A stretch of 32,834 nt of DNA, taken from assembly GCA_964582035.1 (NCBI GenBank), contig CAZOPZ010000001.1, forward strand, positions 27,879-60,712. The letters run 5' to 3'. This document shows positions 6,000 to 32,834 of this stretch, in pieces. Each line of letters begins with the position of its first letter. The first letter of the stretch is position 1. The stretch is from an uncultured Methanosarcinales archaeon (GTDB lineage: Archaea > Nanobdellota > Nanobdellia > Woesearchaeales > GW2011-AR9). The translations under genes were made by a program, and so were the position numbers. The notes beneath the pieces were generated by a model. That model did no database searches, was not told the DNA's origin, and saw nothing but the letters and a program-made list of their open reading frames with translations.

Positions 6000-6024
6000 A
6001 AATGGGGTCTCTCTTTTACATAAA

Positions 6025-6032: not shown

Positions 6033-6054
6033 CCGGTAACCAAAAATCAATCCC

Positions 6055-6468: not shown

Positions 6469-6594
6469 GGGAAAAAGCACATCGTAGAACGTAGGAGTGG
6501 GAGAAGTGCAGGATTACGATAACAAGCAACGCTGGGGGTTCCACGAACCTTTGTATAGCGCAGAAAGAGAATATTATTCTTTCGCTAAACTCCC

Positions 6595-14387: not shown

Positions 14388-14514
14388 GGAGCTGGTAGAA
14401 CAAGGGGAGCGGGGTTTGTCTTTACTGGAGAATAGAAAAGCTTTTAATGGCCAGCTCGGCATACCCCTACCAACTGGCAAAGAAACGTGCTCATGAAGAT
14501 AAAGTGGAGATACC

Positions 14515-21756: not shown

Positions 21757-22865
21757 AAGTTGTTACCGTTCTTGGAACCAGGCCGGAGATTATAAAGCTG
21801 TCAGCTCTTCTCCCCTTATTGGACCAGGAATTTGAACATGTTTTGGTGCACACGGGGCAACATTATGATTACAATATGGATGAAGTTTTTTTTGAGCTCC
21901 TAAAATTGAAAAAGCCCAGTTATACCTTAAACATTGGCTCTCATCAGCAGGGGAAACAAACTGCTTTGATGTTGGAAAGATTTGAAGAGGTGCTCTTAAA
22001 AGAGAAACCAGACCTGGTTATTGTGCAGGGAGACACCAATACGGCCCTAGCCGGGGCATTGGCTGCAGTTAAGTTGCATGTCCCGGTGATGCATGTAGAA
22101 GCAGGATGCCGGTCATTTAACCGTAAGATGCCGGAAGAGATAAATCGGGTTATTGCGGATCATGTTGCCGATTATCTTATCGCTCCTGATAATGAATGCG
22201 TCAACCATTTAAAAGACGAGGGTATCGCTGCAGAGAAAATAAAGCTTCTGGGAAGTACTGCGTTTGAAGCAGTCACCAAGAATAAAAGATTTATTGATCC
22301 GTCTTTGATTAAAAAGCTTTGTCTGGAAAAAAATGCATTTGTTTTGGTCACCATCCATCGTGCTGAAAACACAGATAACGGAGAACATTTACAGAATATT
22401 CTTTCCGTACTTAATGAAATTGCGGAGGAAACAACGGTAGTATTCCCCATGCACCCCAGAACTAAAAAAATGATAGCTAAAAATAATCTTCAAGTAAGCC
22501 AGAGAATAAAAGTCATTGAACCGCAGGATTACTTGTCATTTCTTGCTCTTCTTTCCGCATCAAAAGTCTGCATCTCTGACAGTGGCGGAATTCAGGAAGA
22601 AGCTTTAGTGTTTAATGTTCCCTGCCTTATACCCCGGGAAGAAACCGAATGGATGAGATTAGTAGAAAAAGGAAAGAACTTTCTTGTAGGCACCGATCCC
22701 AAGAGAATCATCTCTAACGTTCGGCGGCTCTTGGATGATGAGAAAGAGCTTCAACGGATAAAACGTATCTCCGTCCATTACGACGCAGCAGTAAGCCCGA
22801 AAATTATTCAGCTCATTAAATCACTTGCAGTTCATAACCTTACGAGTCGGAAGCCTCCTCTTTGA
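21753..22865 (+). CDS. wecB: UDP-N-acetylglucosamine 2-epimerase (non-hydrolysing type)
   Basis: 370 aa. VLGTRPEIIKL, HTGQHYDYNM, VQGDTNTALAGALAA, HVEAGCRSFNRKMPEEINR and SDSGGIQEE. Confidence 0.9.
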   Translation: MKVVTVLGTRPEIIKLSALLPLLDQEFEHVLVHTGQHYDYNMDEVFFELLKLKKPSYTLNIGSHQQGKQTALMLERFEEVLLKEKPDLVIVQGDTNTALAGALAAVKLHVPVMHVEAGCRSFNRKMPEEINRVIADHVADYLIAPDNECVNHLKDEGIAAEKIKLLGSTAFEAVTKNKRFIDPSLIKKLCLEKNAFVLVTIHRAENTDNGEHLQNILSVLNEIAEETTVVFPMHPRTKKMIAKNNLQVSQRIKVIEPQDYLSFLALLSASKVCISDSGGIQEEALVFNVPCLIPREETEWMRLVEKGKNFLVGTDPKRIISNVRRLLDDEKELQRIKRISVHYDAAVSPKIIQLIKSLAVHNLTSRKPPL

Positions 22866-22873
22866 TTTAAAAA
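22866..22873 (+). promoter_or_regulatory. TATA-like box (TTTAAAAA) 26 nt upstream of the lipA ATG
   Basis: A/T-only octamer in the 26-nt gap between wecB and lipA. It may be an internal promoter for the lipoyl/E1/E3/amino-sugar unit. Confidence 0.3.
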
Positions 22874-22891
22874 CAGTTTTTTCGGAAAAAA

Positions 22892-23803
22892 ATGCTCGAA
22901 AACGCAAAAAGAAAGTTCCCCCCTTGGTTAAGGGTGCCGTTCAGTTCAGCTCGCCAGTTTCAGAAAACGGTCGGCGTGATTGCGGATCTCCAGTTGAACA
23001 CTATCTGTGAAGAAGGCGCCTGCCCGAACAAAGCGGAGTGCTTCAGCCATGGAGTTGCCACGTTCATGCTCTTAGGGAAAACCTGCACCAGAAACTGTAA
23101 ATATTGTAACGTTCCTCCGGGAAAACCACGCCCCCTTGATGAGAGTGAGCCTCTTCGAGTTGCTGAAGCCGTACGAAGATTGGGCCTTTCTTATGTTGTC
23201 ATTACGTCAGTAAATCGCGACGACCTGCCGGTTGGCGGAGCTTCACAGTTCATCCAGACAATACAAGAGATAAAGCGGGTACAGCCTTCCTGTAGCATTG
23301 AGACCCTCATCCCCGATTTTAAAGGAAACGAAAAAGTGCTTAAAAATATTTCTACACTCCCTATTGAAGTGCTGAGCCATAATATTGAGACGGTTCAAGA
23401 AATTTTCCCTCGGATACGGCCGCAGGGGAACTATTTCCTTTCACTAGCCGTATTAAAAAAAATGAAACAAAGTAATCCTTTACTGAAAACCAAATCTGGC
23501 TTCATGCTGGGATTGGGAGAGACCGCAGAACAAATCGAACAGGTGTTAACCGATCTCCAAAAACAAGGATGTGACTTTGTTACCATCGGCCAATATCTGC
23601 CCCCCTCAGCCCAGCATTATCCTCTCTCTCGATACTATTCGCCGGAAGAATTTCAACTTTGGAAAGAGAACGCTTTGCAAAAAGGCTTTCTGCATGTGGA
23701 AGCGGGCCCTTTGGTGCGAAGCTCCTATCGCGCCGATAGGCTGATAGCCTACACTGCTCCCCCCACCAAAACAGATTATTGCGAGGTGAAGAGATTTGCC
23801 TGA
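22892..23803 (+). CDS. lipA: lipoyl synthase (radical SAM)
   Basis: 303 aa. CEEGACPNKAEC (auxiliary cluster) and CTRNCKYCNV (radical-SAM CxxxCxxC). Confidence 0.93.
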   Translation: MLENAKRKFPPWLRVPFSSARQFQKTVGVIADLQLNTICEEGACPNKAECFSHGVATFMLLGKTCTRNCKYCNVPPGKPRPLDESEPLRVAEAVRRLGLSYVVITSVNRDDLPVGGASQFIQTIQEIKRVQPSCSIETLIPDFKGNEKVLKNISTLPIEVLSHNIETVQEIFPRIRPQGNYFLSLAVLKKMKQSNPLLKTKSGFMLGLGETAEQIEQVLTDLQKQGCDFVTIGQYLPPSAQHYPLSRYYSPEEFQLWKENALQKGFLHVEAGPLVRSSYRADRLIAYTAPPTKTDYCEVKRFA

Positions 23804-25184
23804 GCAGCAGCATCCAATCTATGATGCAGCCATCATAGGAGGTGGCCCTGCAGGATATAGCGCGGCGCTCCGCATTGCGCAGTTGGGGGGAAAAGCGTGC
23901 CTTATTGAAAAAGATAAGGTGGGGGGCACTTGTGCTACTGTGGGCTGCATACCCACGAAAGCGCTCAGCCATCTTGCAGAATTTTCAAAAACAGCACAAC
24001 AGATGAAAGCTTTGGGGATTCGGAAGGGGGGCGGCTCTTGGAATTTTCAGAAAGTGCAGGCCCATATATGGCAGATTGTCGCAGATGCAGTGGCCGGCAT
24101 TCAATGGACACTCAAAAACCAGGGCATACCTGTAATTAGGGGAACTGCCGTCGTTACTGGAAAAAATGAAGTTGCAGTCTTAAATCAGGATGGCAAAGCC
24201 GAAACAAGCCTTGTTGCAAGAAACATTGTTTTGGCGACCGGATCATCCCCCAGACGGCTAGAACATCTCCCCCCCATCCTTTCAGTCATAACCAGTGATG
24301 AGGTGCTCTCCTTAGAAGCCTTGCCGAAAACTTTAGGCATCATCGGCGGAGGCTACATCGGGCTGGAATTTGCATCCATCTTTAGTGCTTTAGGAACAAA
24401 GGTGCATCTTATTGAAGCATTGCCAACCATTGCGCCCACAGAAGAACCGGAAATTGCCGATGCTATTCAGCGTTTTTTAAAAAAGTCCGGAGTAGAGGTC
24501 ATCACGAATGCCACAATAGGCACAGTACAGGAAACCAAATGTTCCCTCTCTCTCACTATCATCAGCGGGAATGATTGTCGATCACCACCTCTACAGGTTG
24601 AAAAGCTCCTCGTCGCCGTCGGAAGAGTTCCGAACCTGCCGGTCGAAGAGCTGCATCGCCTGGGTATCTCTTACACGCCAGCAGGCATCAGCGTGAATGC
24701 CTACCTAGAAACAAATGTTCCTGGAGTATATGCCATTGGAGATGTCATCTCCACGCCCCGGTTAGCGCATGTGGGTATCCATGAGGGGAGAGTCGCCGCT
24801 GAGAATATCATGGGAAAAAGAAGAGCAATATCGTATGCAACAATTCCCTCATGCATGTACACTGTTCCAGAAGTGGCCAGCATCGGCCAACGGGAAGGGT
24901 CTGTAGGAAGATGCTTTTTCTTAGCCAACGGGAAAGCCAAGGCCATGCACCGGACGGAAGGATTTATAAAAGTGTACCTCAAACAACAAAAACTAGTCGG
25001 AGCAGCAATAGTCGGATGGCAAGCTTCAGAACTCCTGGGGGTTGTTGCGGGTTTTTTAGGAGAAGATGTAGAAGAGATCAAGCAAAAGATTATAGCGCAC
25101 CCCACCCTCTCAGAAATGATTCCTGAAGCGCTGATTGATGCGGGACGGCAAGTTTCCTCCTCCCCGAAGCCGCTCTGGTCATGA
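23796..25184 (+). CDS. lpd: dihydrolipoyl dehydrogenase (E3)
   Basis: 462 aa with a TTG start overlapping the lipA stop. YDAAIIGGGPAG (FAD), GGTCATVGCIPTK (redox disulfide, nt 23931-23948), GGGYIGLEF (NAD) and the C-terminal HPTLSE. Confidence 0.9.
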   Translation: MPEQQHPIYDAAIIGGGPAGYSAALRIAQLGGKACLIEKDKVGGTCATVGCIPTKALSHLAEFSKTAQQMKALGIRKGGGSWNFQKVQAHIWQIVADAVAGIQWTLKNQGIPVIRGTAVVTGKNEVAVLNQDGKAETSLVARNIVLATGSSPRRLEHLPPILSVITSDEVLSLEALPKTLGIIGGGYIGLEFASIFSALGTKVHLIEALPTIAPTEEPEIADAIQRFLKKSGVEVITNATIGTVQETKCSLSLTIISGNDCRSPPLQVEKLLVAVGRVPNLPVEELHRLGISYTPAGISVNAYLETNVPGVYAIGDVISTPRLAHVGIHEGRVAAENIMGKRRAISYATIPSCMYTVPEVASIGQREGSVGRCFFLANGKAKAMHRTEGFIKVYLKQQKLVGAAIVGWQASELLGVVAGFLGEDVEEIKQKIIAHPTLSEMIPEALIDAGRQVSSSPKPLWS

Positions 25185-25960
25185 AACCGCTGGTAAAGAA
25201 AGAGATGGAATCCCTGCTGGAGAATAAAATCATGGAAAATAAAAGCGTGCAGATTCTCGAACACGAACGCCTCCCATATGCCGAAGGCCTAGCTTTGCAA
25301 CGCCGCCTCCAGATACAGCGGGAAAAAGAAGAAATTCCTGACACCATTCTCCTGCTGGAGCATGACTCCGTTTATACCGTGGGAAAAGATATGGCATCGG
25401 AGCAAGCCTTTATTAAAAAAAAACTTCCTGCACCTTTGGAGCATGTGGACCGAGGCGGAAAAATAACCTACCATGGCCCGGGCCAGTTAGTTGCTTATTT
25501 TGTATGGAAGATCACCCTGCCAGAAGTCGGCAATTTTGTCGATGCTCTAGAGAACCTTACAATCAGCCTTTTGCGCACGTATGGAATTGCGGCCTATTCC
25601 CGAAAAAGCGAGAAAGATGCGTATGGAAAAAACATTCGGGGGGCTTGGGCATGGGCAGACGGGATGCACAAAAAAATTGCCGCGCAAGGTATAGCGACTA
25701 AGAAAATAGCGGGAGAAGAGAACACGCTGGTGACTATGCATGGGTTTGCATTAAATGTTTCTACGGACTTGAGTTACTTCTCTTACATCCACCCCTGCGG
25801 ATTTACTTATGAAGTCATGGCTTCTATGGAATCTCTTCTGCAGAAAAAAATAGATATGCAAGAGCTGAAGCTGCTCCTCACGAATAAGCTTCAAAAAGGG
25901 TTATATGCTTCTGCTGATTGTTCCAAAGATAATTCCCCGGAAAGAACCCCTCTTACATAA
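25181..25960 (+). CDS. lipB: octanoyl/lipoyl transferase
   Basis: 259 aa. ATGA overlap with lpd. RGGKITYHGPGQLV, KKIAAQGI (catalytic Lys region), MHGFALNV and HPCG (catalytic Cys). Confidence 0.85.
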   Translation: MKPLVKKEMESLLENKIMENKSVQILEHERLPYAEGLALQRRLQIQREKEEIPDTILLLEHDSVYTVGKDMASEQAFIKKKLPAPLEHVDRGGKITYHGPGQLVAYFVWKITLPEVGNFVDALENLTISLLRTYGIAAYSRKSEKDAYGKNIRGAWAWADGMHKKIAAQGIATKKIAGEENTLVTMHGFALNVSTDLSYFSYIHPCGFTYEVMASMESLLQKKIDMQELKLLLTNKLQKGLYASADCSKDNSPERTPLT

Positions 25961-25970
25961 TTTTTAAATA
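25961..25970 (+). promoter_or_regulatory. TATA-like box (TTTTTAAATA) centred about 27 nt upstream of ATG 25993
   Basis: A/T-only 10-mer in the gap between lipB and E1 alpha. Confidence 0.3.
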
Positions 25971-25992
25971 ACCGAATAAAAGGCTTTTTTTG

Positions 25993-26949
25993 ATGGTTAA
26001 TTCCCCACAAGAAGCCCTCGCCCTCTACCAGAAAATGCTTTATATCAGGATGTTTGAAGAAAAAGTTACTTTTCTCTTTACCCGCGGGCTGATTCATGGA
26101 ACTGCCCATTTTTATATCGGACAGGAAGCGGTGGCTGTGGGTGTCTGTTCAGCTCTGCAGAAAGATGATTTTGTTACCAGCACGCACCGGGGGCATGGCC
26201 ATGCCCTTGCGAAAGGGCTTCATCCGGGCAGGTTCCTTGCAGAACTACAGGGGAAAAAAGATGGTTTTTGTGGAGGTCGGGCTGGCACGCAACATACCAT
26301 CTCTTTTACAGACCATTTTCTGGCAAATGGAGTAACCGGGGGTGCGGCAGTTACGGGAACAGGAATAGCTTTGGCTTACAAAATGCAAAAAAAAGAGCGG
26401 GTGGTGGTCTCTTTCATCGGTGACGGAGCCATGAATGAAGGGCACTTCCACGAAGCGCTTAACCTGGCAGCCGTTTGGAAATTGCCCATCATCTACGTGT
26501 GTGAAAATAATCTCTACGCCATGTCGACCCACACCCAAGAAACCATGATAGTCCAGGAGCTGTATAAAAGAGCAGCATCCTACGGCTTAGAAACGTTTGG
26601 TGTCGACGGCAATGATGTGCTCGCCGTACAGCAGCAGATACAAGCGATTATCGGCGGAGTGCGGGGAGGAAACGGCCCGGTATTCTTGGAGTGTAAAACC
26701 TATCGCCAGAGCGGCCACTCTAAAAATGACCAACGGGTCTATCGAACACGCAAGGAAGAAGAAGCATGGAAACAGAAAGATCCTATTCTCCGGCTTGCAC
26801 ACGTACTCAGAGGAACATTTCACGCTGCTGAAAGCGAGTTACAAGCAGTTCAGGCCGCTGTGGCTGAGCAAATAGAAGAAGCAGTGCACTTCGCAGAAAG
26901 CAGCCCTTTCCCGATGAAAGAAACGGCCCAGGACCACGTTTTTGCATAG
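25993..26949 (+). CDS. 2-oxoacid (pyruvate/acetoin-type) dehydrogenase E1 alpha subunit, ThDP-dependent
   Basis: GDGAMNEGHFHEALNLAAVWKLPIIYVCENN (ThDP motif) and YRQSGHSKNDQRVYRTRKEEEAWKQKDPI. The track start at 25990 is a TTG one codon upstream of the ATG. Confidence 0.88.
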   Translation: MVNSPQEALALYQKMLYIRMFEEKVTFLFTRGLIHGTAHFYIGQEAVAVGVCSALQKDDFVTSTHRGHGHALAKGLHPGRFLAELQGKKDGFCGGRAGTQHTISFTDHFLANGVTGGAAVTGTGIALAYKMQKKERVVVSFIGDGAMNEGHFHEALNLAAVWKLPIIYVCENNLYAMSTHTQETMIVQELYKRAASYGLETFGVDGNDVLAVQQQIQAIIGGVRGGNGPVFLECKTYRQSGHSKNDQRVYRTRKEEEAWKQKDPILRLAHVLRGTFHAAESELQAVQAAVAEQIEEAVHFAESSPFPMKETAQDHVFA

Positions 26950-26967
26950 GAGAATAAACACAAAAAA

Positions 26968-27930
26968 ATGAGAACCATCAGTTACCTGGAAGCGATCCGA
27001 GAAGCAATCATCGAAGAAATGAATAGGGACCCCACGGTATTTTTTATGGGGGAAGACATCGCTGCGTATGGGGGAGCTTTTGGTGTTTCCAAAGGCCTGC
27101 TCCAACTTTTTGGGCCGGAAAGAGTAAGGAACACGCCGATGTCAGAAGCGGCAATAACAGGTGTGGCTGCCGGAGCCGCCATTGCCGGCATGCGGCCCAT
27201 TGTTGAAATCATGTTCATGGATTTTATAACACTAGCCATGGACCAGCTCCTGAACCATGCCACACAATATCGCTACACCTCCAATGGGCAAATTAAAGTT
27301 CCTTTTGTCTTGCGGACGCCTTCAGGCGGTGGGAGGGGATACGGTTCGACGCATTCTAAATCCCTGGAACCCTTGCTGCAAGGAATACCTGGTCTGAAAA
27401 TAGTTGCTCCTTCTACAGCGTACGATGCCAAAGGGCTTCTCAAAGCTGCAATCCGGGATGACAACCCCATTATTTTTATTGAAAACAAACTCCTTTACTC
27501 AAAAGTTGGCGAAGTTCCCGAAGAGGAGTATATCCTCCCTTTGGAGCAAGCCACTATAGTGCGCGAAGGTTCGGTTCTCACAGTAATCTCTTACGGAAAG
27601 ATGCTTCAAGAGAGCGTGGAGGCGGTCACGCAGCTTGGGGCAGCAGTGGAGATTATCGACCTGAGAACACTGCGCCCAATTGACATAGCGTTGATAACGG
27701 CGTCCGTTAAAAAGACGGGAAAAGTGCTCATCGTCGAGGAGGGATTTAAAACGGGAGGCCTGGCAGCCGAGATTACGGCGCAGATTGGAGAACGGTGTTT
27801 CGATTACCTTGATGCACCCATAAGACGCCTGGCGTCGGAAGATGTCCCTATCCCTTGCACGCCCATTCTTGAACAGGAAGTTCTCCCCAACAAATCAAAA
27901 ATCATGAAAGCGATTCAAGAGCTGCTCTGA
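26968..27930 (+). CDS. 2-oxoacid dehydrogenase E1 beta subunit
   Basis: 320 aa. FMGEDIAAYGGAFGVSKGL, RVRNTPMSEAAITG, HSKSLEP and IDLRTLRPID. Confidence 0.9.
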   Translation: MRTISYLEAIREAIIEEMNRDPTVFFMGEDIAAYGGAFGVSKGLLQLFGPERVRNTPMSEAAITGVAAGAAIAGMRPIVEIMFMDFITLAMDQLLNHATQYRYTSNGQIKVPFVLRTPSGGGRGYGSTHSKSLEPLLQGIPGLKIVAPSTAYDAKGLLKAAIRDDNPIIFIENKLLYSKVGEVPEEEYILPLEQATIVREGSVLTVISYGKMLQESVEAVTQLGAAVEIIDLRTLRPIDIALITASVKKTGKVLIVEEGFKTGGLAAEITAQIGERCFDYLDAPIRRLASEDVPIPCTPILEQEVLPNKSKIMKAIQELL

Positions 27931-27931
27931 C

Positions 27932-29050
27932 ATGTACACCATAATCCTCCCAAAAATAGAGCCGAATACCGAGGAAGCAACTATTGTCGAATGGCTGAAG
28001 AAAGAAGGCGATCTTGTCAAAAAAGGGGAAGCCCTCTTTGTCATTGAAACTTCAAAGGCGGCAATTGAAGTAGAAGCAGAAGAAACGGGCACCCTCCGCA
28101 AGATCATGGTCCCCGAAGGGAAAACGGTTCCCGTCTTGAGCGTCCTCGGAGTCCTCGGGAGCAAAGAGGAGCCGCTGCCAGATCTTTCTTCTTTTTCTGC
28201 TCTGCCGACGAAACACAAACCAGAGCTTACAGAACAGATACCAAAAAAAATGGAAGGCCAAGAGCCAGCGCCTTTTCCAAAAGCTTCCCCCGCTGCCAAG
28301 AGGGTGGCTCGAGAGCAAAAGATTGAGCTCCACCAGATACCTGCCACCGGTCCAGGGGGGAGGATAGTCGAAAGTGATGTGTGGGATTACCTAAAAGCGA
28401 ACAAAGGAACCGGGAAAAATAACCAAAAGGATCGTGTTCTTATCATTGGTGCAGGGAGGGGTGGTGAAGTTGTTGCCGACATTCTCCAGCAGAATGGGTT
28501 GGTCGTGGTTGGCTTTTTAGATGACAACGAAACACTCTGGGGAAAAGAGCTTCTTGGTAAAAAAATATATGGGGGCCTGGGGCTTGTTGATCGGCTGCTC
28601 TCTGAAAAGATGTTTGATAGCGTGATTGTTTCTATCACGAGTAATATGAAGCTAAGAAAAATAATTTATGAGAGAATGGCTCTGAAGAGCATAAACTTTG
28701 TGAATGTTATCCATCCAAAAGCTGACATCAATTCTTCCGTAGAGCTGGGAAAAGGGAACATTATCGGGGCATTTGCGTATATTGGCTATGGCACAAGAGT
28801 CGGAAACAATAATCTCATAACGGCTCACAGTAATATTGAGCACCACAACATCTTGGGGAGCCACATCTTATTTGGGCCGGGAGTGATGACCAGCGGCAAC
28901 GTCACTATTCATGATGAATGTTCACTGGGAGCTGGCGTGAATATCGAGCCCCATGTGACGATTGGGAATAATGTGGCTATTGCCAGCGGGTCGACAGTTA
29001 TTTACGACTTGCCACCACACACGGTGCTGAAAAGCGAGGTAAAACGATGA
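27932..29050 (+). CDS. E2-like fusion of a lipoyl domain, a peripheral-subunit (E1/E3)-binding domain and a PglD/NeuD-type hexapeptide sugar N-acetyltransferase domain (no CAT-like E2 core)
   Basis: 372 aa. Residues 1-77 form the lipoyl domain (VIETSKAAIEVEA, K42 at nt 28055-28057). Residues 78-117 are a P/A/E-rich linker. Residues 118-154 are ASPAAKRVAREQKIELHQIPATGPGGRIVESDVWDYL (PSBD, nt 28283-28393). Residues 167-372 are RVLIIGAGRGGEVVADIL..GFLDDN followed by hexapeptide repeats with IEHHN (nt 28430-29047). No DHRxxDG motif is present. Confidence 0.8.
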   Translation: MYTIILPKIEPNTEEATIVEWLKKEGDLVKKGEALFVIETSKAAIEVEAEETGTLRKIMVPEGKTVPVLSVLGVLGSKEEPLPDLSSFSALPTKHKPELTEQIPKKMEGQEPAPFPKASPAAKRVAREQKIELHQIPATGPGGRIVESDVWDYLKANKGTGKNNQKDRVLIIGAGRGGEVVADILQQNGLVVVGFLDDNETLWGKELLGKKIYGGLGLVDRLLSEKMFDSVIVSITSNMKLRKIIYERMALKSINFVNVIHPKADINSSVELGKGNIIGAFAYIGYGTRVGNNNLITAHSNIEHHNILGSHILFGPGVMTSGNVTIHDECSLGAGVNIEPHVTIGNNVAIASGSTVIYDLPPHTVLKSEVKR

Positions 29051-30138
29051 TCCCTATCGCCAAACCCTTTCTCGGAGAAGAAGAAAAAATAGCGGTTTTA
29101 GAGGTACTGGATTCAGGAATCCTGGCGCAAGGCAAAAAAGTAAGAGAATTTGAACAGCAATTTGCGGCATTTGTCGGAGTGCAGCATGCGATCGCCACCT
29201 CCAACGGAACAACGGCGCTCCATGCAGCTTTGCTGGCTCATGGCATTCAGGAAGGCGACGAAGTTATCACCTCGCCTTTTTCTTTTATTGCAACGGCAAA
29301 TGCCATTCGCATGTGTGGAGCTACTCCCGTATTTGTGGATATCGATGAAAAAACATTGAATATAGATCCCGAGCTCATTGAAAAAAATATTACGAAAAAA
29401 ACCAAAGCCCTTCTCCCCGTGCACCTTTTTGGCTTACCCGCAGACATGGGAAGAATAACAGCTATCGCCGAAAGATACCAGTTAGCAGTCATTGAGGATG
29501 CCTGCCAGGCGCATGGTGCAGAAGTTCTCGGAAAGAAAGTAGGCTCTTTTGGCACCGGCTGCTTTTCGTTCTATGCAACGAAAAACATGACAACGGGAGA
29601 AGGGGGGATGATTACGACAGATGATAGCCATATTGCTGAGAAAGTTCGGAGAATTATCAATCACGGTTCCTCGCAGAAATATCATCACGAAATTCTGGGA
29701 TATAATTATCGCCTGACAGAGATAGCGGCAGCGCTCGGGCTGGCCCAATTAAAAAAATTGCCCAGATATAATGAAGCAAGAAAGCAAAATGCCGCACAAT
29801 TAACGGCTCTCCTCAGAGGAATACCGGGGCTCATTCTTCCCGTTTCACATGAAGGGCGCGTCTTCCACCAGTACACGCTGCGTATCACCGAAAAAAGTGC
29901 AAAGAATAGGGATGATGTGGTTCATTTTCTTGCCGATCACGGAATCCAAGCCGCGGTCTTTTATCCCGTGCCCATCCACAAACAGAAAGCGTACAGCGGA
30001 TATGAGACCGGCTCACTTCCGGTTGCGGAATGTATAGCAAAAGAAGTTCTTTCCCTCCCCATTCACCCAGGATTAGGATCAGAAGACTTGGCATACCTTG
30101 CTGCCCATCTCCACAAAGCGCTGGGTGAAAAGGACTAA
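29047..30138 (+). CDS. DegT/DnrJ/EryC1/StrS PLP aminotransferase (WbpE/GnnB/PglE-like nucleotide-sugar aminotransferase)
   Basis: 363 aa. ATGA overlap with the fusion gene. NGTTALHAALLA, SFYATKNMTTGEGGMI (PLP Lys) and GYNYRLTEIAAALGLAQL. Confidence 0.88.
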   Translation: MIPIAKPFLGEEEKIAVLEVLDSGILAQGKKVREFEQQFAAFVGVQHAIATSNGTTALHAALLAHGIQEGDEVITSPFSFIATANAIRMCGATPVFVDIDEKTLNIDPELIEKNITKKTKALLPVHLFGLPADMGRITAIAERYQLAVIEDACQAHGAEVLGKKVGSFGTGCFSFYATKNMTTGEGGMITTDDSHIAEKVRRIINHGSSQKYHHEILGYNYRLTEIAAALGLAQLKKLPRYNEARKQNAAQLTALLRGIPGLILPVSHEGRVFHQYTLRITEKSAKNRDDVVHFLADHGIQAAVFYPVPIHKQKAYSGYETGSLPVAECIAKEVLSLPIHPGLGSEDLAYLAAHLHKALGEKD

Positions 30139-30139
30139 G

Positions 30140-31117
30140 ATGATCAAAGTGGCGGTTATCGGAGTGGGCTCTATTGGACAACATCATGCACGGGTTTACT
30201 TTCACACTGAAGCGATACAGCTGGTAGCCGTCGCGGATGCTCAGGAAGAGCAAGCACAAAAAGTTGCTAAGCAATACAATACAAAAGCATACCAAAATTA
30301 CCAAGAATTGCTCGATAAAGAGGACTTTGATGCCGTGTCCATCGCCGTTCCTACGAGCTTACACCGCGAGGTCGCAGGCGCCATGCTCCGGAGAGGGAAA
30401 CACGTGCTTCTCGAAAAGCCGATTGCGGCTGCGGAACAAGAGGCCCAAGAGCTCATTGAACTGGCGGATAAAAACAATGTCAAATTAATGGTTGGGCATA
30501 TTGAGCGGTTTAATCCTGCGATTCTCGAATTAAAAAGGCGCTTGCAGAAAGGCGAGCTGGGAGAGATCTACCATGTCGATGTCCAACGGATCGGGCCTTT
30601 TCCTGCGCGGATCACTGATGTGGGGGTTATTATCGACTTGTCCGTCCATGATTTAGATATAATCACCCATCTTCTAGAGGACTTTCCTTCACGGATCTAT
30701 GCAGAAACCCAACAAAAGCTGCACCCCCATCATGAAGATTCGGTCACGGCCTTGCTTCGCTACCGAAACGGAGCGTTGGTCATCTTGAATGAAAATTATG
30801 TCTCGCCCACAAAGACCAGACAGCTTAAAATCTTCGGCAAGAAAGGGATGTTTCTGGTTAATTATTTGGATCAAGAACTGTATTTCTATGAGAATAAAAG
30901 CTTCTCAGCAGATAATTGGGAAAGCGTTACCGAAGGGGATATGAAGAAGATAATTATACCAAAAAAAGAGCCCTTGCAGCTAGAGATAGAAGCTTTTGTT
31001 TCCTCTTTCAGCCAGAATCTCCCCCCGCCAATAGATGGAACTGCCGGCTTAAACGCCCTGAAAATAGCCCATGCGGTCCTTCGTTCAGCAAGAGAGAAAA
31101 CAGTCATAGAATGGTGA
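30140..31117 (+). CDS. Gfo/Idh/MocA-family NAD(P) oxidoreductase (WbpB/GnnA-like nucleotide-sugar dehydrogenase candidate)
   Basis: MIKVAVIGVGSIGQHHARVY Rossmann start, VLLEKPIAAAEQEA (EKP motif) and MVGHIERFNPA. I prefer ATG 30140, 1 nt after the upstream stop. The track start at 30098 overlaps the upstream gene. Confidence 0.85.
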   Translation: MIKVAVIGVGSIGQHHARVYFHTEAIQLVAVADAQEEQAQKVAKQYNTKAYQNYQELLDKEDFDAVSIAVPTSLHREVAGAMLRRGKHVLLEKPIAAAEQEAQELIELADKNNVKLMVGHIERFNPAILELKRRLQKGELGEIYHVDVQRIGPFPARITDVGVIIDLSVHDLDIITHLLEDFPSRIYAETQQKLHPHHEDSVTALLRYRNGALVILNENYVSPTKTRQLKIFGKKGMFLVNYLDQELYFYENKSFSADNWESVTEGDMKKIIIPKKEPLQLEIEAFVSSFSQNLPPPIDGTAGLNALKIAHAVLRSAREKTVIEW

Positions 31118-31998
31118 ACAGTATGAAAGTGCTGATAACAATCCCTGCCTATAACGAAGAAAGAACTCTTCCTTTGGTTCTTGAAGAGATAAAAGAGGTC
31201 ATGAAGCAGACCAGCCATCAGTACGAAATTCTGGTCGTTGATGATGGCTCTCGAGATAGAACTGCAGAAATTTCCCAGAGGCATGGCGCAGTCGTCGTTT
31301 CAAAAAAGCACCAGGGCCTGGCAGAAACTTTCAAGAAAGAGATACAGGAATGCCTGAAGCGCAAAGCGGATATCATTGTCCACACGGATGCGGACGGGCA
31401 ATATCCCCCCCAGCACATCCCGGAGCTCATTAAAAAAATCCAGGAAGGATACGACCTCGTCCTCGGCAGCAGATTCCGGATACCGGGAGCGCCCCTGCCT
31501 TTTCTCAAACGAGTGGGGAATAGAGCTTTTTCTCGTATCTTAAGCTCTTTGACAAAAGTAAAGCTGACTGACACGACAACGGGCTTTCGGGCTTTCACTG
31601 CCGAAGTGGCCAGAGAGATCACTTTTATTAATACTTTTACGTACACGCAAGAACAAATAATTAAAGTAGCGAAGCAGGGATTCCGCATTGCTGAAATCCC
31701 CATACGAAGCAGAAAAACGCGAGAGAGCAGATTATTCAAGAATCCATTTCAATATGCCATGCGGGCCTGGATTAATATCTTTCGGATTTATCGAGATTAC
31801 GAGCCGTTGGCATTTTTTGGAAGAATTGGCGTTTTCGGGCTATCGGTGGGAATAAGTATTGGCTTTTATTTTGTCTATCTCCACTTCACTTCGGGAATTC
31901 GGGGACACTTGGGGTTATTATTTTTGATGATGATCCTTTTGGTATTTGGCTTACAGACGGTATTGTTTGGATTTTTGGCTGATATGATGAAACGTTAA
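31111..31998 (+). CDS. GT2 polyprenol-phosphate glycosyltransferase with two C-terminal TM helices (GtrB/DPM1/ArnC-like)
   Basis: VLITIPAYNEERTL...ILVVDDGSRDRT...HTDADGQY, with C-terminal hydrophobic LAFFGRIGVFGLSVGISIGFYFV and LLFLMMILLVFGLQTVLFGFLADMM. The start is ATG 31111 or 31123. The track start at 30916 lies inside the upstream gene. Confidence 0.85.
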   Translation: MVNSMKVLITIPAYNEERTLPLVLEEIKEVMKQTSHQYEILVVDDGSRDRTAEISQRHGAVVVSKKHQGLAETFKKEIQECLKRKADIIVHTDADGQYPPQHIPELIKKIQEGYDLVLGSRFRIPGAPLPFLKRVGNRAFSRILSSLTKVKLTDTTTGFRAFTAEVAREITFINTFTYTQEQIIKVAKQGFRIAEIPIRSRKTRESRLFKNPFQYAMRAWINIFRIYRDYEPLAFFGRIGVFGLSVGISIGFYFVYLHFTSGIRGHLGLLFLMMILLVFGLQTVLFGFLADMMKR

Positions 31999-32031: not shown

Positions 32032-32834
32032 ATGAAGCAAAAAACGGAAGTCGTCGTCACCATCGGGCCGGCAACCTGGACTGAAGGAGATCTCCGAAAA
32101 ATAAAAGACAAAGGGGTCGACTTTGTGCGGGTGAATATGTCGCATTCCACCCTTGCCGATTTAAAGCGCTGCCTGGCTCTTGCTCAGAAAGTAGGGATCC
32201 CTTTCATCATTGATACGGAAGGCTCACAAGTGAGGACGGGAGAGCTGACGACGCCTTGCCTGACCGTCGAGGAAAATGATGAGATAAGAATCCATACGAC
32301 GGAGATTATCGGCGATAAAGAGAATTTCAATTTGAAACCAATCAGTGTCGTTTCCCAACTGGAAGTGGGAGACCTCATTTCTATCGATTTTGACACGGTG
32401 ACGCTCCGCATTTCCGATAATTCAGCGCTCGCACAGGGATATATTATGGCCCGCGTTGTAACGGGCGGCTCACTGGGGAAAAACAAAGCAGTAGTCATTG
32501 ATCCAGTTTCCCAGAAGAAGCTCGTTTTGCCGACGCTTTCCGAAAAAGATTTCCAGTCCATCGCTATTGGCTTGGAAGAAGGGGTCGGTTATATCGCTGC
32601 GTCGTTCATGCGCTCGGGAAAAGCCGTTGAAGAAGTGCGGGCCGCTACCCAGAACACCATGAAGATCATTTCTAAGATAGAGGGCGTCAATGCCCTGGAA
32701 AATCTGGATGACATCATCAAAAGATCCGATTTTCTCCTCATTGATCGGGGAGACTTAAGCAAAGAAATTCCTATCGAAAAAATTCCGTTTACCCAAAAGC
32801 TCATTATCAGCCGGGCCAAGAAGCAGGGCGTGGG
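32032..32834 (+). CDS. pyruvate kinase family protein, 3'-truncated by the window end
   Basis: Not in the ORF track because it is open-ended. My translation from ATG 32032 has no stop for 267 codons. It reads MKQKTEVVVTIGPA...FVRVNMSHS...IDTEGSQVRTG...LSEKDFQSIAIGLEEGVGYIAASFMR...IISKIEGVNALENLDDII...LIDRGDLSKEIPIEKIPFTQKLII. These match the PK motifs TIGPA, RxNxSH, DTxG, SKIE and RGDL. Confidence 0.75.
   Translation, partial: MKQKTEVVVTIGPATWTEGDLRKIKDKGVDFVRVNMSHSTLADLKRCLALAQKVGIPFIIDTEGSQVRTGELTTPCLTVEENDEIRIHTTEIIGDKENFNLKPISVVSQLEVGDLISIDFDTVTLRISDNSALAQGYIMARVVTGGSLGKNKAVVIDPVSQKKLVLPTLSEKDFQSIAIGLEEGVGYIAASFMRSGKAVEEVRAATQNTMKIISKIEGVNALENLDDIIKRSDFLLIDRGDLSKEIPIEKIPFTQKLIISRAKKQGV

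What the first reader, a model, noticed from the sequence alone, without database searches (positions are those of the whole stretch)
22892..31998. Complete lipoate-synthesis, E1ab and E3 set hard-wired into a nucleotide-amino-sugar operon
Seen in sequence: nine same-strand genes are packed with overlaps or tiny gaps. The order is lipA, lpd (TTG start overlapping the lipA stop), lipB (ATGA overlap), E1 alpha, E1 beta, the lipoyl-PSBD-PglD fusion (1-nt gap), a DegT aminotransferase (ATGA overlap), a Gfo/Idh/MocA oxidoreductase (1-nt gap) and a membrane GT2. GT2-wecB lies immediately upstream and a pyruvate-kinase-like gene immediately downstream. No canonical E2 is present in the window.

Established knowledge: LipB and LipA build the lipoyl cofactor on a lipoyl domain. 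E1 reductively acylates it from a 2-oxoacid. E3 re-oxidises it with NAD+.

Inference: the only lipoyl carrier encoded here is the sugar-acetyltransferase fusion. The whole redox machine therefore appears dedicated to supplying an acyl group for glycan biosynthesis rather than to central metabolism. This could matter for reduced-genome organisms with limited CoA or acetyl-CoA supply.

An alternative role is ThDP-dependent C2 branching of a keto-sugar by E1 alone, as proposed for AviB1/AviB2 or as YerE does. That route would not need a lipoyl carrier, E3, LipA or LipB.
Basis: partly seen in the sequence, partly recalled or inferred. Interest (0 to 1): 0.9.

Follow-up and report, generated by a model that had tools for sequence, protein, structure and literature searches.

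The report
Pyruvate-dehydrogenase-like machine that acylates sugars
A tiny archaeon's surface-sugar operon carries a complete pyruvate-dehydrogenase-like set in which the usual CoA-acetylating core is replaced by a sugar N-acetyltransferase, so it probably acetylates an amino sugar straight from pyruvate, and the same module is widespread but undescribed.

Summary
Eleven same-strand genes (21004-31998) are packed with gaps of -8 to +32 nt: GT2, wecB, lipA, lpd, lipB, E1 alpha, E1 beta, a lipoyl-PSBD-PglD_N-LbH fusion, DegT, a UDP-GlcNAc-3-dehydrogenase-like Gfo and a membrane GT2. No E2 catalytic core exists in the window.

The window matches a Woesearchaeota (DPANN) MAG. The 8-gene block GT2-wecB-lipA-lpd-lipB-E1a-E1b-fusion recurs in five distinct DPANN-type lineages. 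A sixth small-genome locus carries LplA and LipA instead.

The triad E1a-E1b-fusion sits in glycan loci of at least eight bacterial phyla, including cultured Bacteroides cutis. It usually lies next to a DegT aminotransferase, where WbpD or FdtC would normally be. Close relatives have unfused versions (free lipoyl protein, LbH, E1ab, DegT).

A profile search shows a large family: the top 150 representatives all score E <= 4e-86. The lipoyl lysine is kept in 181/182 members and the catalytic histidine in 182/182.

Best reading: E1 loads an acyl group (probably acetyl from pyruvate) on the fusion's lipoyl arm. The fused LbH domain passes it to a nucleotide amino sugar without CoA, and E3 re-oxidises the arm.

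Ten literature searches found no description. Woesearchaeota papers read such genes as an acetyl-CoA-forming PDH. The mechanism is inferred, not tested.

The parts
21004..21756 (+). GT2 glycosyltransferase, polyprenyl-phosphate sugar synthase-like (ArnC/PpgS-type hits). First gene of the conserved block.
   Evidence: Pfam PF00535, 98 bits. Best NCBIfam hits are ArnC, PgfS and PpgS, all below their cutoffs. Conserved upstream of wecB in L002/L023, L022 and L027.
21753..22865 (+). Non-hydrolysing UDP-N-acetylglucosamine-type 2-epimerase (wecB / WbpI-like).
   Evidence: TIGR00236, 352 bits against a cutoff of 210. Overlaps the GT2 stop by 4 nt.
22892..23803 (+). Lipoyl synthase LipA, bacterial type.
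   Evidence: TIGR00510, 352 bits against a cutoff of 310. Both Fe-S Cys motifs are present.
23796..25184 (+). Dihydrolipoyl dehydrogenase (E3, Lpd). TTG start overlapping the lipA stop by 8 nt.
   Evidence: TIGR01350, 416.6 bits against a cutoff of 408.8. Redox CATVGC and C-terminal HPTLSE are present.
25181..25960 (+). Lipoyl(octanoyl) transferase LipB.
   Evidence: TIGR00214, 114.8 bits against a cutoff of 83.55; Pfam LplA-B_cat. RGGKITYHGPGQ and HPCG motifs are present.
25993..26949 (+). 2-oxoacid dehydrogenase E1 alpha (ThDP-binding), PDH/acetoin-dehydrogenase type.
   Evidence: E1_dh, 260 bits. TIGR03182, 336 bits, below its cutoff of 393.85. Best PDB hit is human PDH E1 alpha at 203 bits, against 110-123 bits for other E1 types. 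GDG...NN and the catalytic His in 'GHSKND' are conserved.
26968..27930 (+). 2-oxoacid dehydrogenase E1 beta.
   Evidence: NF006667, 369 bits against a cutoff of 321. Best PDB hit is Pyrobaculum PDH E1 beta, 293 bits.
27932..29050 (+). E2 surrogate, 372 aa. Lipoyl domain aa 1-80 (27932-28171), PSBD about aa 116-158 (28277-28405), PglD_N aa 168-250 (28433-28681), LbH acyltransferase about aa 255-369 (28694-29038).
   Evidence: Pfam. AF2 model pLDDT 88.8, with disordered linkers at 92-111 and 160-164. Foldseek: the C-terminal half matches PerB, PglB-ATD, VioB and PglD with TM 0.88-0.90, and the lipoyl domain matches 2dnc with TM 0.75. No PDB chain covers both halves.
28055..28057 (+). Codon of Lys42, the predicted lipoylated lysine (ETSKA).
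   Evidence: Lys in 181/182 full-length family members. Codon checked.
28841..28843 (+). Codon of His304, the predicted catalytic base of the LbH domain (NIEHHN).
   Evidence: His in 182/182 members. Aligns with PerB His141, the residue mutated in PDB 4eaa and 4eab.
29047..30138 (+). DegT/DnrJ/EryC1 PLP-dependent sugar aminotransferase (WbpE-like role).
   Evidence: PF01041, 441.6 bits. ATGA overlap with the fusion. A DegT gene is near the module in most loci.
30140..31117 (+). Gfo/Idh/MocA oxidoreductase, UDP-GlcNAc 3-dehydrogenase-like (WbpB-like role).
   Evidence: Best NCBIfam hit is NF040723, archaeal UDP-GlcNAc 3-dehydrogenase, at 331 bits (cutoff 450). The next family scores 170 bits.
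31111..31998 (+). GT2 with two C-terminal transmembrane helices (polyprenyl-phosphate sugar synthase-like).
   Evidence: PF00535, 87.8 bits. Hydrophobic C-terminus seen in the translation. Conserved after Gfo in L001 and L002/L023.
32032..32834 (+). PK-barrel gene cut by the window end. Possibly associated, since it could yield pyruvate from PEP. In relative L001 it continues into PUA_2 and ATP-sulfurylase domains.
   Evidence: PF00224, 161.7 bits. The L001 orthologue has PK + PUA_2 + ATP-sulfurylase.

Best explanation
This is a glycan-dedicated variant of a 2-oxoacid (pyruvate-type) dehydrogenase complex. Its E2 catalytic core has been replaced by a sugar N-acyltransferase.

**Proposed cycle**
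1. LipB and LipA build lipoate on Lys42 of the fusion protein.
2. The E1 alpha/beta ThDP enzyme decarboxylates a 2-oxoacid and reductively acylates that lipoyl arm. In the archaeal clade the substrate is most likely pyruvate, giving acetyl.
3. The arm swings into the active site of the fused PglD/PerB-type left-handed beta-helix domain, with His304 as catalytic base.
4. The acyl group is then transferred directly to the amino group of a nucleotide-activated amino sugar, without acyl-CoA.
5. E3 (Lpd), docked on the PSBD, re-oxidises the dihydrolipoyl arm with NAD+.

**Sugar route in this window**
- The amino sugar is most likely UDP-GlcNAc3N, made by the co-translated Gfo 3-dehydrogenase and DegT aminotransferase.
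- The product would be UDP-GlcNAc3NAc, possibly 2-epimerised by wecB.
- The two GT2 enzymes would load it onto a polyprenyl phosphate. The nearby PMT_2/ArnT-like GT-C enzymes would then deliver it to the cell surface.

**Shown and inferred**
- Shown: gene content, domain architecture, catalytic residues and cross-phylum linkage.
- Inferred: lipoylation of Lys42, direct lipoyl-to-sugar transfer, identity of the acyl group and identity of the sugar.
For: 1. The architecture is complete apart from the E2 core. E1ab, E3, LipA and LipB pass or nearly pass their curated cutoffs and keep catalytic motifs. The only lipoyl domain and PSBD are on the LbH fusion. No PF00198 core occurs in the window or in 403 kb of related loci.
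2. The linkage is conserved.
   - E1a-E1b-fusion is contiguous in 19/21 loci. These come from DPANN archaea, Planctomycetota, Verrucomicrobiota, Chloroflexota, Desulfuromonadaceae, Bacteroides, Saprospiraceae, Chitinophaga and Bdellovibrionota.
   - In L020 the module sits among WbpA-, WbpB- and WbpI-type genes, with DegT a few genes downstream, where WbpD would be.
   - In Bacteroides cutis it follows three FdtA genes and precedes DegT, where FdtC/QdtC would be.
3. Lipoylation genes travel with the module in small genomes: lipA-lpd-lipB in five DPANN-type lineages, and split LplA plus LipA (47% identical to the window's LipA) in the 804-kb contig L019.
4. There is Rosetta-stone support.
   - L025 has LbH, a free 89-aa lipoyl protein, E1a, E1b and DegT as separate neighbours.
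   - L024 has E1a, E1b and a free 76-aa lipoyl protein.
   - Their lipoyl proteins are 60-64% identical to the fusion's lipoyl domain.
5. Purifying selection acts on both ends: Lys42 in 181/182 and His304 in 182/182 of diverse members. His304 aligns with the PerB catalytic His141.
6. The E1 alpha histidine used for reductive acylation of lipoyl (GHS motif) is kept in every module E1.
7. From my own knowledge, there are precedents:
   - LbH acyltransferases LpxA and LpxD already take thioester donors tethered to a carrier protein.
   - CAT-fold and LbH-fold acetyltransferases are known functional analogues (CAT versus XAT).
   - ThDP/lipoyl systems that hand an acyl unit to an acceptor other than CoA exist (QncN/L/M, cited in PMC6335953).
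Against: - No biochemical test exists. The LbH domain is a normal member of an acetyl-CoA-using family by sequence and predicted fold, and nothing seen here shows loss of a CoA site.
- Free-living bacteria rich in acetyl-CoA keep the module, so a CoA-saving rationale cannot be general. The acyl group there may not be acetyl: bacterial-module E1 alpha forms its own clade, only 36-45% identical to canonical E1 alpha.
- LipB normally needs octanoyl-ACP, which a DPANN archaeon is not expected to make.
- Two short Anaerolineales contigs (L004, L007) lack E1 directly upstream.
- L022 and L027 lack DegT/Gfo next to the module.
- The rest of the genome could not be searched for a canonical E2. The published count table for UBA10194 lists extra pdhA, pdhB and pdhD copies.
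Confidence: 0.62

Rival explanations
1. Same machine, different acyl group. E1 uses a 2-oxoacid other than pyruvate (for example 2-oxobutyrate, hydroxypyruvate or a branched-chain 2-oxoacid) or acetoin. The module would then exist to install an unusual N-acyl group for which the cell has no acyl-CoA pool. This is a sub-variant of the best explanation. It is more likely for the bacterial clade than for this window.
For: - Bacteria with ample acetyl-CoA and ordinary WbpD/FdtC-type enzymes available still keep the triad.
- Bacterial-module E1 alpha is a separate clade: 44-70% identical within the clade and 36-45% to canonical E1 alpha.
- It also differs at a position next to the ThDP site: 'YAQ(S/T)T' against 'YAMST' in the DPANN clade.
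- The window's E1 alpha scores below the PDH equivalog cutoff, 336 against 393.85.
Against: - The window's E1 alpha is clearly nearest to pyruvate dehydrogenase E1 alpha: human PDH E1 alpha 203 bits against about 110-123 for Thermus and BCKDH E1.
- It is 51-54% identical to proteins annotated as pyruvate/acetoin dehydrogenase alpha.
- Acetoin would also give acetyl.
- PglD-family pockets usually fit acetyl.
Confidence: 0.2
2. Ordinary acetyl-CoA-dependent sugar N-acetyltransferase. Its lipoyl/PSBD extension only tethers a PDH-like E1/E3 that works with a canonical E2 encoded elsewhere. That arrangement would give local acetyl-CoA supply, or housekeeping PDH genes sitting in a glycan operon by chance.
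For: - The LbH half looks like a standard CoA-using enzyme.
- Woesearchaeota papers annotate pdhC as present in several MAGs and read the genes as PDH.
- The genome outside the window could not be inspected.
Against: - No E2 core lies next to the module in any of 24 loci.
- A lipoyl domain without an E2 core would be acylated by E1 and have no way to unload.
- The lipoyl Lys is kept in 181/182 members even in bacteria that have their own PDH.
- Unfused versions keep a dedicated free lipoyl protein inside glycan loci.
- The 'pdhC' calls may simply be the fusion itself. This is an inference: its N-terminal 160 aa hit E2 models at 60-94 bits.
Confidence: 0.1
3. E1 alpha/beta acts alone as a ThDP-dependent C-C bond-forming enzyme on a keto-sugar (two-carbon branching, as proposed for AviB1/AviB2). 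The lipoyl fusion, E3 and LipA/LipB would be unrelated passengers.
For: - E1ab genes without E2 are known in sugar and EPS clusters, for example the Crocosphaera EPS cluster (PMC3247675).
- A 3-keto sugar is made in this operon by Gfo.
Against: - This does not explain the strict E1b-to-lipoyl-fusion adjacency (often overlapping stop/start), the invariant lipoyl Lys, the E3 and lipoylation genes inside the operon, or the retained E1 alpha His needed for lipoyl acylation.
- The keto sugar is already consumed by the co-translated DegT.
Confidence: 0.04

Closest known systems
Pyruvate / acetoin dehydrogenase complexes of the E1 alpha-beta type (E1ab, E2, E3; for example Geobacillus PDH or AcoABCL)
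   Same: - Heterotetramer-type E1 with ThDP motif and catalytic His.
- Lipoyl domain followed by a PSBD on one polypeptide.
- A dedicated E3.
- LipB/LipA lipoylation.
- A trimer-based acyltransferase at the C-terminus of the lipoyl protein (LbH enzymes are trimers, from my own knowledge).
   Different: - The CAT-fold E2 core (PF00198) is absent. A non-homologous PglD_N + LbH sugar N-acyltransferase takes its place.
- The inferred acceptor is an amino sugar, not CoA.
- The genes sit in glycan loci, not with central metabolism.
NeuD/PglB/VioB family sugar N-acetyltransferases (PglD, PerB, VioB, PglB-ATD, WeeI)
   Same: - The C-terminal 205 aa have the same two-domain fold: TM 0.88-0.90 and RMSD 1.3-2.2 Å to PerB, PglB-ATD and VioB.
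- The catalytic His is the same.
- The genomic partnership with a DegT aminotransferase is the same.
   Different: - It carries an N-terminal lipoyl domain and PSBD and is always paired with E1ab.
- TIGR03570 score is 152.8, just under its cutoff of 160.8.
- The inferred donor is a lipoyl-tethered thioester instead of acetyl-CoA.
- The inferred substrates here are 3-amino sugars, whereas the characterised members act on 4-amino sugars.
WbpA/WbpB/WbpE/WbpD/WbpI pathway to UDP-ManNAc3NAcA (P. aeruginosa, Bordetella, Thermus; PMC10622841)
   Same: - Gfo-type 3-dehydrogenase, DegT 3-aminotransferase, LbH N-acetyltransferase step and 2-epimerase in one cluster.
- L020 and L026 also have the 6-dehydrogenase.
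   Different: - The WbpD/WlbB-type acetyl-CoA enzyme is replaced by E1ab plus the lipoyl-LbH fusion.
- No 6-dehydrogenase is in this window, so the product may be the non-uronic sugar.
QncN/QncL/QncM (and SclQ1-4) ThDP-lipoyl systems of natural-product pathways
   Same: A PDH-like ThDP enzyme loads an acyl unit on a lipoyl domain. A fused acyltransferase then hands it to an acceptor other than free CoA, for a dedicated biosynthetic pathway (PMC6335953).
   Different: - There the ThDP enzyme is transketolase-like and takes a C2 unit from a ketose phosphate.
- The acyltransferase is the usual E2-type domain.
- The acceptor is an ACP.
- Here E1 is a true E1_dh (260 bits against Transketolase_N 26 bits), the acyltransferase is an LbH, and the inferred acceptor is a sugar amine.
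LpxA/LpxD (LbH acyltransferases using acyl-ACP)
   Same: LbH trimer that takes a thioester donor tethered to a small carrier domain and acylates a UDP-sugar. The LbH half gives weak hits to LpxA and LpxD.
   Different: - The carrier is ACP-phosphopantetheine, not a fused lipoyl domain.
- The acyl chains are long.
- No redox cycle is involved.

Membership tests
2-oxoacid dehydrogenase complex (PDH/AoDH type) | E1 alpha/beta ThDP-dependent decarboxylase with GDG...NN motif and catalytic histidines | tested here: met
   - E1_dh 260 bits; Transket_pyr and Transketolase_C.
- E1 beta NF006667, 369 bits against a cutoff of 321.
- Motifs conserved.
- E1 alpha scores 336 bits, below the PDH equivalog cutoff of 393.85.
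2-oxoacid dehydrogenase complex (PDH/AoDH type) | E2 with lipoyl domain(s) and peripheral subunit-binding domain | tested here: met
   - Biotin_lipoyl 57.5 bits and E3_binding 50.2 bits on the fusion.
- Lipoyl Lys kept in 181/182 members.
- Bacterial members have only a degenerate PSBD-like segment: the Ala122 position is kept in 180/182 and the GPGGR loop is mostly deleted.
2-oxoacid dehydrogenase complex (PDH/AoDH type) | E2 catalytic core of the CAT fold (PF00198) that transfers the acyl group to CoA | tested here: not met
   - No PF00198 on any window ORF.
- tblastn with ten E2 cores: best E = 0.32 in the window.
- No hit in 24 related loci.
2-oxoacid dehydrogenase complex (PDH/AoDH type) | E3 dihydrolipoyl dehydrogenase | tested here: met
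   - TIGR01350, 416.6 bits against a cutoff of 408.8.
- CATVGC and HPTLSE present.
- Present in the operon only in the DPANN-type loci.
NeuD/PglB/VioB sugar N-acetyltransferases | PglD_N Rossmann-like domain plus LbH domain with catalytic His | tested here: met
   - PF17836 and PF00132.
- Foldseek TM 0.88-0.90 to PerB, PglB-ATD and VioB.
- His304 aligns with PerB His141.
NeuD/PglB/VioB sugar N-acetyltransferases | Curated family score (TIGR03570) | tested here: not met
   152.8 bits against a cutoff of 160.8. This is a marginal miss.
NeuD/PglB/VioB sugar N-acetyltransferases | Acetyl-CoA as acyl donor | not testable with these tools
   Needs an enzyme assay with and without CoA. Sequence and predicted fold neither show nor exclude a CoA site.
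Wbp-type UDP-2,3-diacetamido sugar pathway | UDP-GlcNAc(A) 3-dehydrogenase of the Gfo/Idh/MocA family | tested here: inconclusive
   Best NCBIfam hit is NF040723 at 331 bits, below its cutoff of 450. The next family scores 170 bits.
Wbp-type UDP-2,3-diacetamido sugar pathway | DegT-type aminotransferase and 2-epimerase in the cluster | tested here: met
   PF01041, 441.6 bits. TIGR00236, 352 bits against a cutoff of 210.
Wbp-type UDP-2,3-diacetamido sugar pathway | UDP-GlcNAc 6-dehydrogenase (WbpA) and WbpD/WlbB-type acetyltransferase | tested here: not met
   - No UDPG_MGDP_dh gene in the window.
- The acetyltransferase is PglD-type and fused to a lipoyl domain.
- A 6-dehydrogenase is present in L020 and L026.
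LipB/LipA de novo lipoylation | Octanoyltransferase with Cys/Lys dyad and radical-SAM lipoyl synthase with two Fe-S motifs | tested here: met
   - TIGR00214, 114.8 bits against a cutoff of 83.55.
- TIGR00510, 352 bits against a cutoff of 310.25.
- Motifs present.
- The octanoyl donor in an archaeon is unknown.
AviB1/AviB2-like E1 used for keto-sugar branching | E1ab acting without lipoyl carrier, E3 or lipoylation enzymes | tested here: not met
   A lipoyl carrier is adjacent in 19/21 loci, and E3 and LipA/LipB are in the operon here.
Qnc/Scl ThDP-lipoyl-ACP C2-unit system | Transketolase-like two-component ThDP enzyme, E2-type acyltransferase and ACP acceptor | tested here: not met
   - E1_dh 260 bits against Transketolase_N 26 bits.
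- No PF00198 and no ACP gene found in the ORFs scanned.
- The comparison is based on PMC6335953.

The most novel reading that the evidence does not exclude
A previously undescribed class of multienzyme complex: a 'glycan-acylating 2-oxoacid dehydrogenase'. The CAT-fold E2 core has been replaced by a non-homologous LbH sugar N-acyltransferase. An acyl group made by oxidative decarboxylation is carried on lipoate and placed directly on a nucleotide amino sugar with no CoA intermediate.

The family is large and spans many bacterial phyla and DPANN archaea. The top 150 cluster representatives at 50% identity all score E <= 4e-86, most of them full length.

In DPANN the full set (LipA, LipB, E3, E1ab, fusion) moved as one operon. 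At least part of the 'pyruvate dehydrogenase' credited to Woesearchaeota would then be a cell-surface tailoring device, not an energy or acetyl-CoA enzyme.
Probability: 0.55. Interest if true: 0.88.

Novelty: new variant of a known kind. Interest (0 to 1): 0.82.

Why it matters
- **A new role for lipoate.** If the mechanism holds, it adds a fourth kind of job for protein-bound lipoate, besides the 2-oxoacid dehydrogenases, glycine cleavage and the Qnc-type natural-product systems. It would also be the first case of a lipoyl arm feeding a glycan-tailoring enzyme.
- **Non-homologous replacement.** It would be a clean example of a CAT-fold trimer swapped for an LbH trimer inside a classical multienzyme complex.
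- **Correction of DPANN metabolic models.**
  - Published reconstructions of Woesearchaeota count pdh genes as evidence for acetyl-CoA formation from pyruvate and for aerobic-type metabolism (PMC8421398, PMC5994134).
  - Lipoylation and OADHC genes have also been proposed as markers of aerobiosis in archaea (PMC3904984).
  - The E1 alpha of archaeon GW2011_AR9, annotated as pyruvate dehydrogenase in NCBI, lies in exactly this glycan operon.
- **Better annotation.** It gives a function to a large family of proteins now labelled 'biotin/lipoyl-containing protein', 'E3 binding domain-containing protein' or 'NeuD family O-acyltransferase'.
- **Possible unusual acyl groups.** It may explain E1ab genes long noticed in polysaccharide loci, and could reveal N-acyl groups derived from 2-oxoacids.
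- **Testable.** Cultured carriers (Bacteroides cutis, Pelagicoccus mobilis) make direct tests possible.

Tried and rejected
- **Legionella lead.** From memory I expected the Legionella pneumophila LPS locus to contain PDH-like genes. The paper holds no such terms, so I dropped it.
- **Other papers.** Tenacibaculum O-antigen and Arcobacter papers had nothing relevant. 'Lipoylation' of flagellin glycans in PMC4875605 means fatty-acylation and is unrelated.
- **Prior description.** Ten full-text searches found no description of a lipoyl-LbH fusion or of lipoyl-dependent sugar acylation. The library lacks most subscription journals, so this is not proof.
- **Genome scan.** The first scan with the 44-sequence alignment failed for lack of a conserved stretch. 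It worked with 26 closer sequences.
- **Viral contigs.** No relatives were found.
- **L015.** It turned out to be a canonical E2 picked up through its lipoyl domain and was excluded.
- **Promoter and terminator scan.** It is bacterial-type only and gave chance-level promoter counts. I used it only to note that no + strand terminator-like site lies inside the unit.
- **Canonical E2 in these MAGs.** I tried to settle this from Supplementary Data 3 of PMC8421398. The table gives counts only and cannot tell a fusion from a true E2.
- **E1 substrate.** I could not infer it from active-site residues. Only clade membership and one ThDP-proximal position (Met against Gln) could be compared.
- **CoA site.** I did not find a way to test loss of a CoA-binding site from sequence.

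Full report
**1. What is in the window**

The + strand between 21004 and 31998 carries eleven tightly packed genes. In order they are:
- a GT2
- wecB
- lipA
- lpd (TTG start)
- lipB
- E1 alpha
- E1 beta
- a 372-aa fusion
- a DegT aminotransferase
- a Gfo/Idh/MocA oxidoreductase
- a GT2 with two C-terminal membrane helices

Junctions are -4, +26, -8, -4, +32, +18, +1, -4, +1 and -7 nt. No + strand terminator-like site lies inside the unit.

Family assignments are firm:

| Gene | Model | Bits | Cutoff |
|---|---|---|---|
| lipA | TIGR00510 | 352 | 310 |
| lpd | TIGR01350 | 416.6 | 408.8 |
| lipB | TIGR00214 | 114.8 | 83.55 |
| E1 beta | NF006667 | 369 | 321 |
| wecB | TIGR00236 | 352 | 210 |
| E1 alpha | Pfam E1_dh | 260 | 22 |
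| E1 alpha | PDH equivalog (TIGR03182) | 336 | 393.85 (not reached) |

The Gfo protein is best matched by the archaeal UDP-GlcNAc 3-dehydrogenase model (331 bits, cutoff 450, next family 170). Catalytic motifs of LipA, LipB and Lpd are intact.

The fusion has Biotin_lipoyl, E3_binding (PSBD), PglD_N and Hexapep domains. No ORF in the window has an E2 catalytic core. tblastn with ten such cores finds only noise.

**2. Where it comes from**

The fusion is 100% identical to a protein of a 'Candidatus Woesearchaeota archaeon' MAG (GCA_016177285.1) and 89% identical to one from a Nanoarchaeia MAG. The whole window is a surface-glycan island. It holds a Wzx-type flippase, GT4 and GT2 enzymes, a methyltransferase, a second DegT with a GDP-mannose 4,6-dehydratase, and two PMT_2/ArnT-like GT-C enzymes.

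**3. The fusion protein**

- An AlphaFold2 model built on 44 homologues is confident (pLDDT 88.8). It shows four folded units joined by disordered linkers.
- Foldseek superimposes the C-terminal half on PerB, PglB-ATD, VioB and PglD (TM 0.88-0.90). It superimposes the N-terminal domain on a human lipoyl domain (TM 0.75). No solved chain covers both halves.
- His304 aligns with PerB His141, the residue mutated in PDB entries 4eaa and 4eab. Lys42 sits in an ETSKA turn typical of lipoyl domains.

**4. It is a family, not a one-off**

- A word-indexed search found about 45 full-length relatives.
- An exhaustive profile search of 1.84 billion cluster representatives returned 150 listed hits, all with E <= 4e-86. 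Most are full length, so the list was far from exhausted.
- In 182 full-length members Lys42 is Lys in 181 and His304 is His in all 182.
- Database names are generic: 'biotin/lipoyl-containing protein' (Pelagicoccus mobilis WP_200356433.1), 'E3 binding domain-containing protein' and 'sugar O-acyltransferase NeuD family'. No NCBIfam model fits the whole protein.

**5. Gene neighbourhoods**

A scan of one genome per GTDB species found relatives in two DPANN archaea and in:
- Planctomycetaceae
- Anaerolineales
- Verrucomicrobiota
- Desulfuromonadaceae
- Bacteroides cutis (a cultured strain)
- Saprospiraceae
- Bdellovibrionota
- Chitinophaga
- another Bacteroidota MAG

tblastn with the window's proteins and precomputed gene calls show E1 alpha, E1 beta and the fusion contiguous and co-directional in 19 of 21 loci. 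The two exceptions are short Anaerolineales contigs. In several Bacteroidota and Bdellovibrionota loci E1 alpha and beta are one polypeptide.

The module keeps the company of sugar-nucleotide enzymes:
- In L020 it sits after wecB, a UDP-sugar 6-dehydrogenase and Gfo, with DegT a few genes downstream. That is the Wbp pathway (PMC10622841) with the module where WbpD would be.
- In B. cutis it sits in a UpxY-WecA capsule locus after three FdtA genes and before DegT and Wzx. That is an Fdt/Qdt-type 3-amino-3,6-dideoxyhexose route with the module where FdtC/QdtC would be.

The module therefore looks like a portable N-acylation cassette.

**6. Lipoylation genes and E3 ride along in small genomes**

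- The block GT2-wecB-lipA-lpd-lipB-E1a-E1b-fusion occurs in the window, L001, L002/L023, L022 and L027. L002 (UBA10194) and L023 (archaeon GW2011_AR9) give identical identities, so I count them as one lineage. DegT-Gfo-GT2 follows in three of these lineages.
- A different solution appears on an 804-kb contig (L019): Gfo-DegT-E1a-E1b-LplA_C-LplA_N-LipA-fusion. Its LipA is 47% identical to the window's.
- In bacteria, which have housekeeping lipoylation and E3, these genes are not in the locus.
- The nearest E1 alpha relatives of the window that are not next to a fusion sit in unfused versions. L025 has LbH, a free 89-aa lipoyl protein, E1a, E1b and DegT. L024 has E1a, E1b and a free 76-aa lipoyl protein. 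Those lipoyl proteins are 60-64% identical to the fusion's lipoyl domain.
- This is classic Rosetta-stone evidence that the fused parts work together. No PF00198 core lies in any of these loci.

**7. Mechanism**

The simplest scheme that uses every conserved part is as follows.
1. LipB and LipA lipoylate Lys42.
2. E1 decarboxylates a 2-oxoacid and reductively acylates the lipoyl arm. The E1 alpha histidine needed for this step is kept in all module E1s.
3. The arm delivers the thioester to the LbH active site, where His304 activates the sugar amine.
4. E3 re-oxidises the arm.

An E2 core is not needed, because the acyl group never goes to CoA.

From my own knowledge:
- LbH enzymes are trimers with active sites at subunit interfaces, as E2 cores are.
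- LpxA and LpxD show that LbH enzymes can use carrier-tethered thioesters.
- CAT and XAT show that the two folds can do the same chemistry.
- The Qnc/Scl systems show a ThDP-lipoyl relay feeding an acceptor other than CoA (PMC6335953).

For this window the acyl group is most likely acetyl from pyruvate. E1 alpha is much closer to PDH E1 alpha than to other solved E1s (203 against 110-123 bits). It is also 51-54% identical to proteins annotated as pyruvate/acetoin dehydrogenase alpha.

The sugar is most likely UDP-GlcNAc3N, because fusion, DegT and Gfo are translationally coupled. The window also encodes a GDP-perosamine-type pair (GDP-mannose 4,6-dehydratase and a second DegT, 13239-15600) with no acetyltransferase of its own. 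The LbH half is PerB-like, so a second substrate is possible.

The downstream PK-barrel gene could supply pyruvate. In L001, however, it is fused to PUA_2 and ATP-sulfurylase domains, so its role is unclear.

**8. What does not fit, or is unknown**

- The LbH half shows no visible departure from CoA-using relatives, so CoA independence is inferred from the missing E2 core and not shown.
- Bacteria with plenty of acetyl-CoA keep the module. Their E1 alpha forms a separate clade (44-70% within, 36-45% to canonical E1 alpha) and differs at a ThDP-proximal position (Gln for Met). The bacterial module may therefore install another acyl group.
- The DPANN-type E1, and its canonical PSBD, are closer to ordinary PDH/Aco components than to the bacterial module. 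The two clades may have assembled partly independently.
- LipB needs an octanoyl donor that a DPANN cell is not expected to make.
- L022 and L027 lack DegT/Gfo beside the module.
- I could not inspect the rest of any genome. The published table for UBA10194 lists pdhA 2, pdhB 3, pdhC 1 and pdhD 2, which cannot separate a fusion from a true E2.

**9. Comparison with the literature**

Ten full-text searches found no description of this architecture or mechanism.

Woesearchaeota studies state that some members 'appear to employ pyruvate dehydrogenase' for acetyl-CoA synthesis (PMC8421398; PMC5994134). The latter cites the earlier GW2011 genomes. The E1 alpha of GW2011_AR9, annotated as pyruvate dehydrogenase in NCBI, lies in exactly this operon.

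In Supplementary Data 3 of PMC8421398, MAGs such as UBA489 and UBA544 score pdhABC while showing almost no glycolysis and no por, acs, pta or ack. That is odd for a catabolic PDH and natural for a glycan enzyme. I could not verify that their 'pdhC' is the fusion.

Lipoylation and OADHC genes have been proposed as a marker of aerobiosis in archaea (PMC3904984). This operon would be an exception.

E1ab genes inside an EPS cluster were listed for Crocosphaera without interpretation (PMC3247675).

**10. Verdict**

I file the system as a new variant of the 2-oxoacid dehydrogenase complexes, not as a member of the canonical family. It fails the defining E2-core test and appears to have a different acceptor.

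| Claim | Confidence |
|---|---|
| Lipoyl-to-sugar mechanism | about 0.6 |
| Acetyl from pyruvate in this window | about 0.5 |

The system is directly testable in vitro and in cultured carriers.

Noticed in passing
window 1234-7401 (+): Gene run: ATP-sulfurylase/PUA_2; a 954-aa protein with cytidylyltransferase-like, PPDK_N and PEP-utilizer mobile domains; a Peptidase_C26 glutamine amidotransferase; a HIT protein; and a MobA-like nucleotidyltransferase. From memory this resembles the Campylobacter jejuni O-methyl-phosphoramidate capsule-modification set (Cj1418 glutamine kinase, Cj1417, Cj1416, Cj1415). That would be unexpected in a DPANN archaeon.
   Followed up: no
window 32032-32834 (+); L001 10335-12290: The 'pyruvate kinase' after the operon is a PK barrel without the usual C-terminal domain. 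In the 89%-identical relative it is fused to PUA_2 and an ATP-sulfurylase domain, more than 652 aa in all and running off the contig. A second ATP-sulfurylase gene lies at window 1234-2412. A PK::ATP-sulfurylase fusion might couple PEP to sulfate activation.
   Followed up: partly
window 13239-15600 (+): A second DegT aminotransferase and a GDP-mannose 4,6-dehydratase form a perosamine-type pair, with no acetyltransferase gene beside them. The fusion's LbH half is PerB-like. It might therefore also acylate GDP-perosamine.
   Followed up: no
L009 8058-10004; also L010, L011, L012, L014: In Bacteroidota and Bdellovibrionota loci E1 alpha and E1 beta are encoded as one polypeptide of about 650 aa directly before the lipoyl-LbH fusion. 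Single-chain alpha-beta E1 of this type is unusual.
   Followed up: partly
L009 6737-8068: Three tandem FdtA/WxcM-type ketoisomerase paralogues (149, 155 and 141 aa) precede the module in the Bacteroides cutis capsule locus.
   Followed up: no
L026 1-9708: A standalone PglD-like LbH (49% identical to the fusion's C-terminal half) sits next to truncated E1 alpha (258 aa) and E1 beta (172 aa) fragments with no lipoyl domain. It lies downstream of a phage-type integrase, an HNH protein and about 15 small unannotated ORFs. This may be a decaying module on a mobile element, or assembly frameshifts.
   Followed up: partly
L020 2992-4863: The UDP-sugar 6-dehydrogenase upstream of the module carries an intein (PF14890).
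   Followed up: no
window 1-1000: The first kilobase has GC 0.31 against about 0.45 for the rest of the window. It holds only the C-terminal part of an Epimerase_2-like ORF on the - strand (37-594).
   Followed up: no
L024 and L025; also L023 2858-3901: LPG_synthase_TM (PF03706) membrane proteins recur beside the E1ab/lipoyl modules in DPANN-type glycan loci. In L025 one lies between E1 beta and DegT. Their role is unknown.
   Followed up: no
window 22892-27930 versus flanks: The lipA-to-E1 beta segment has slightly higher GC (0.486) than the upstream 20 kb (0.450). LipA and LipB are of bacterial type. Both points are consistent with acquisition from bacteria, but the signal is weak.
   Followed up: partly
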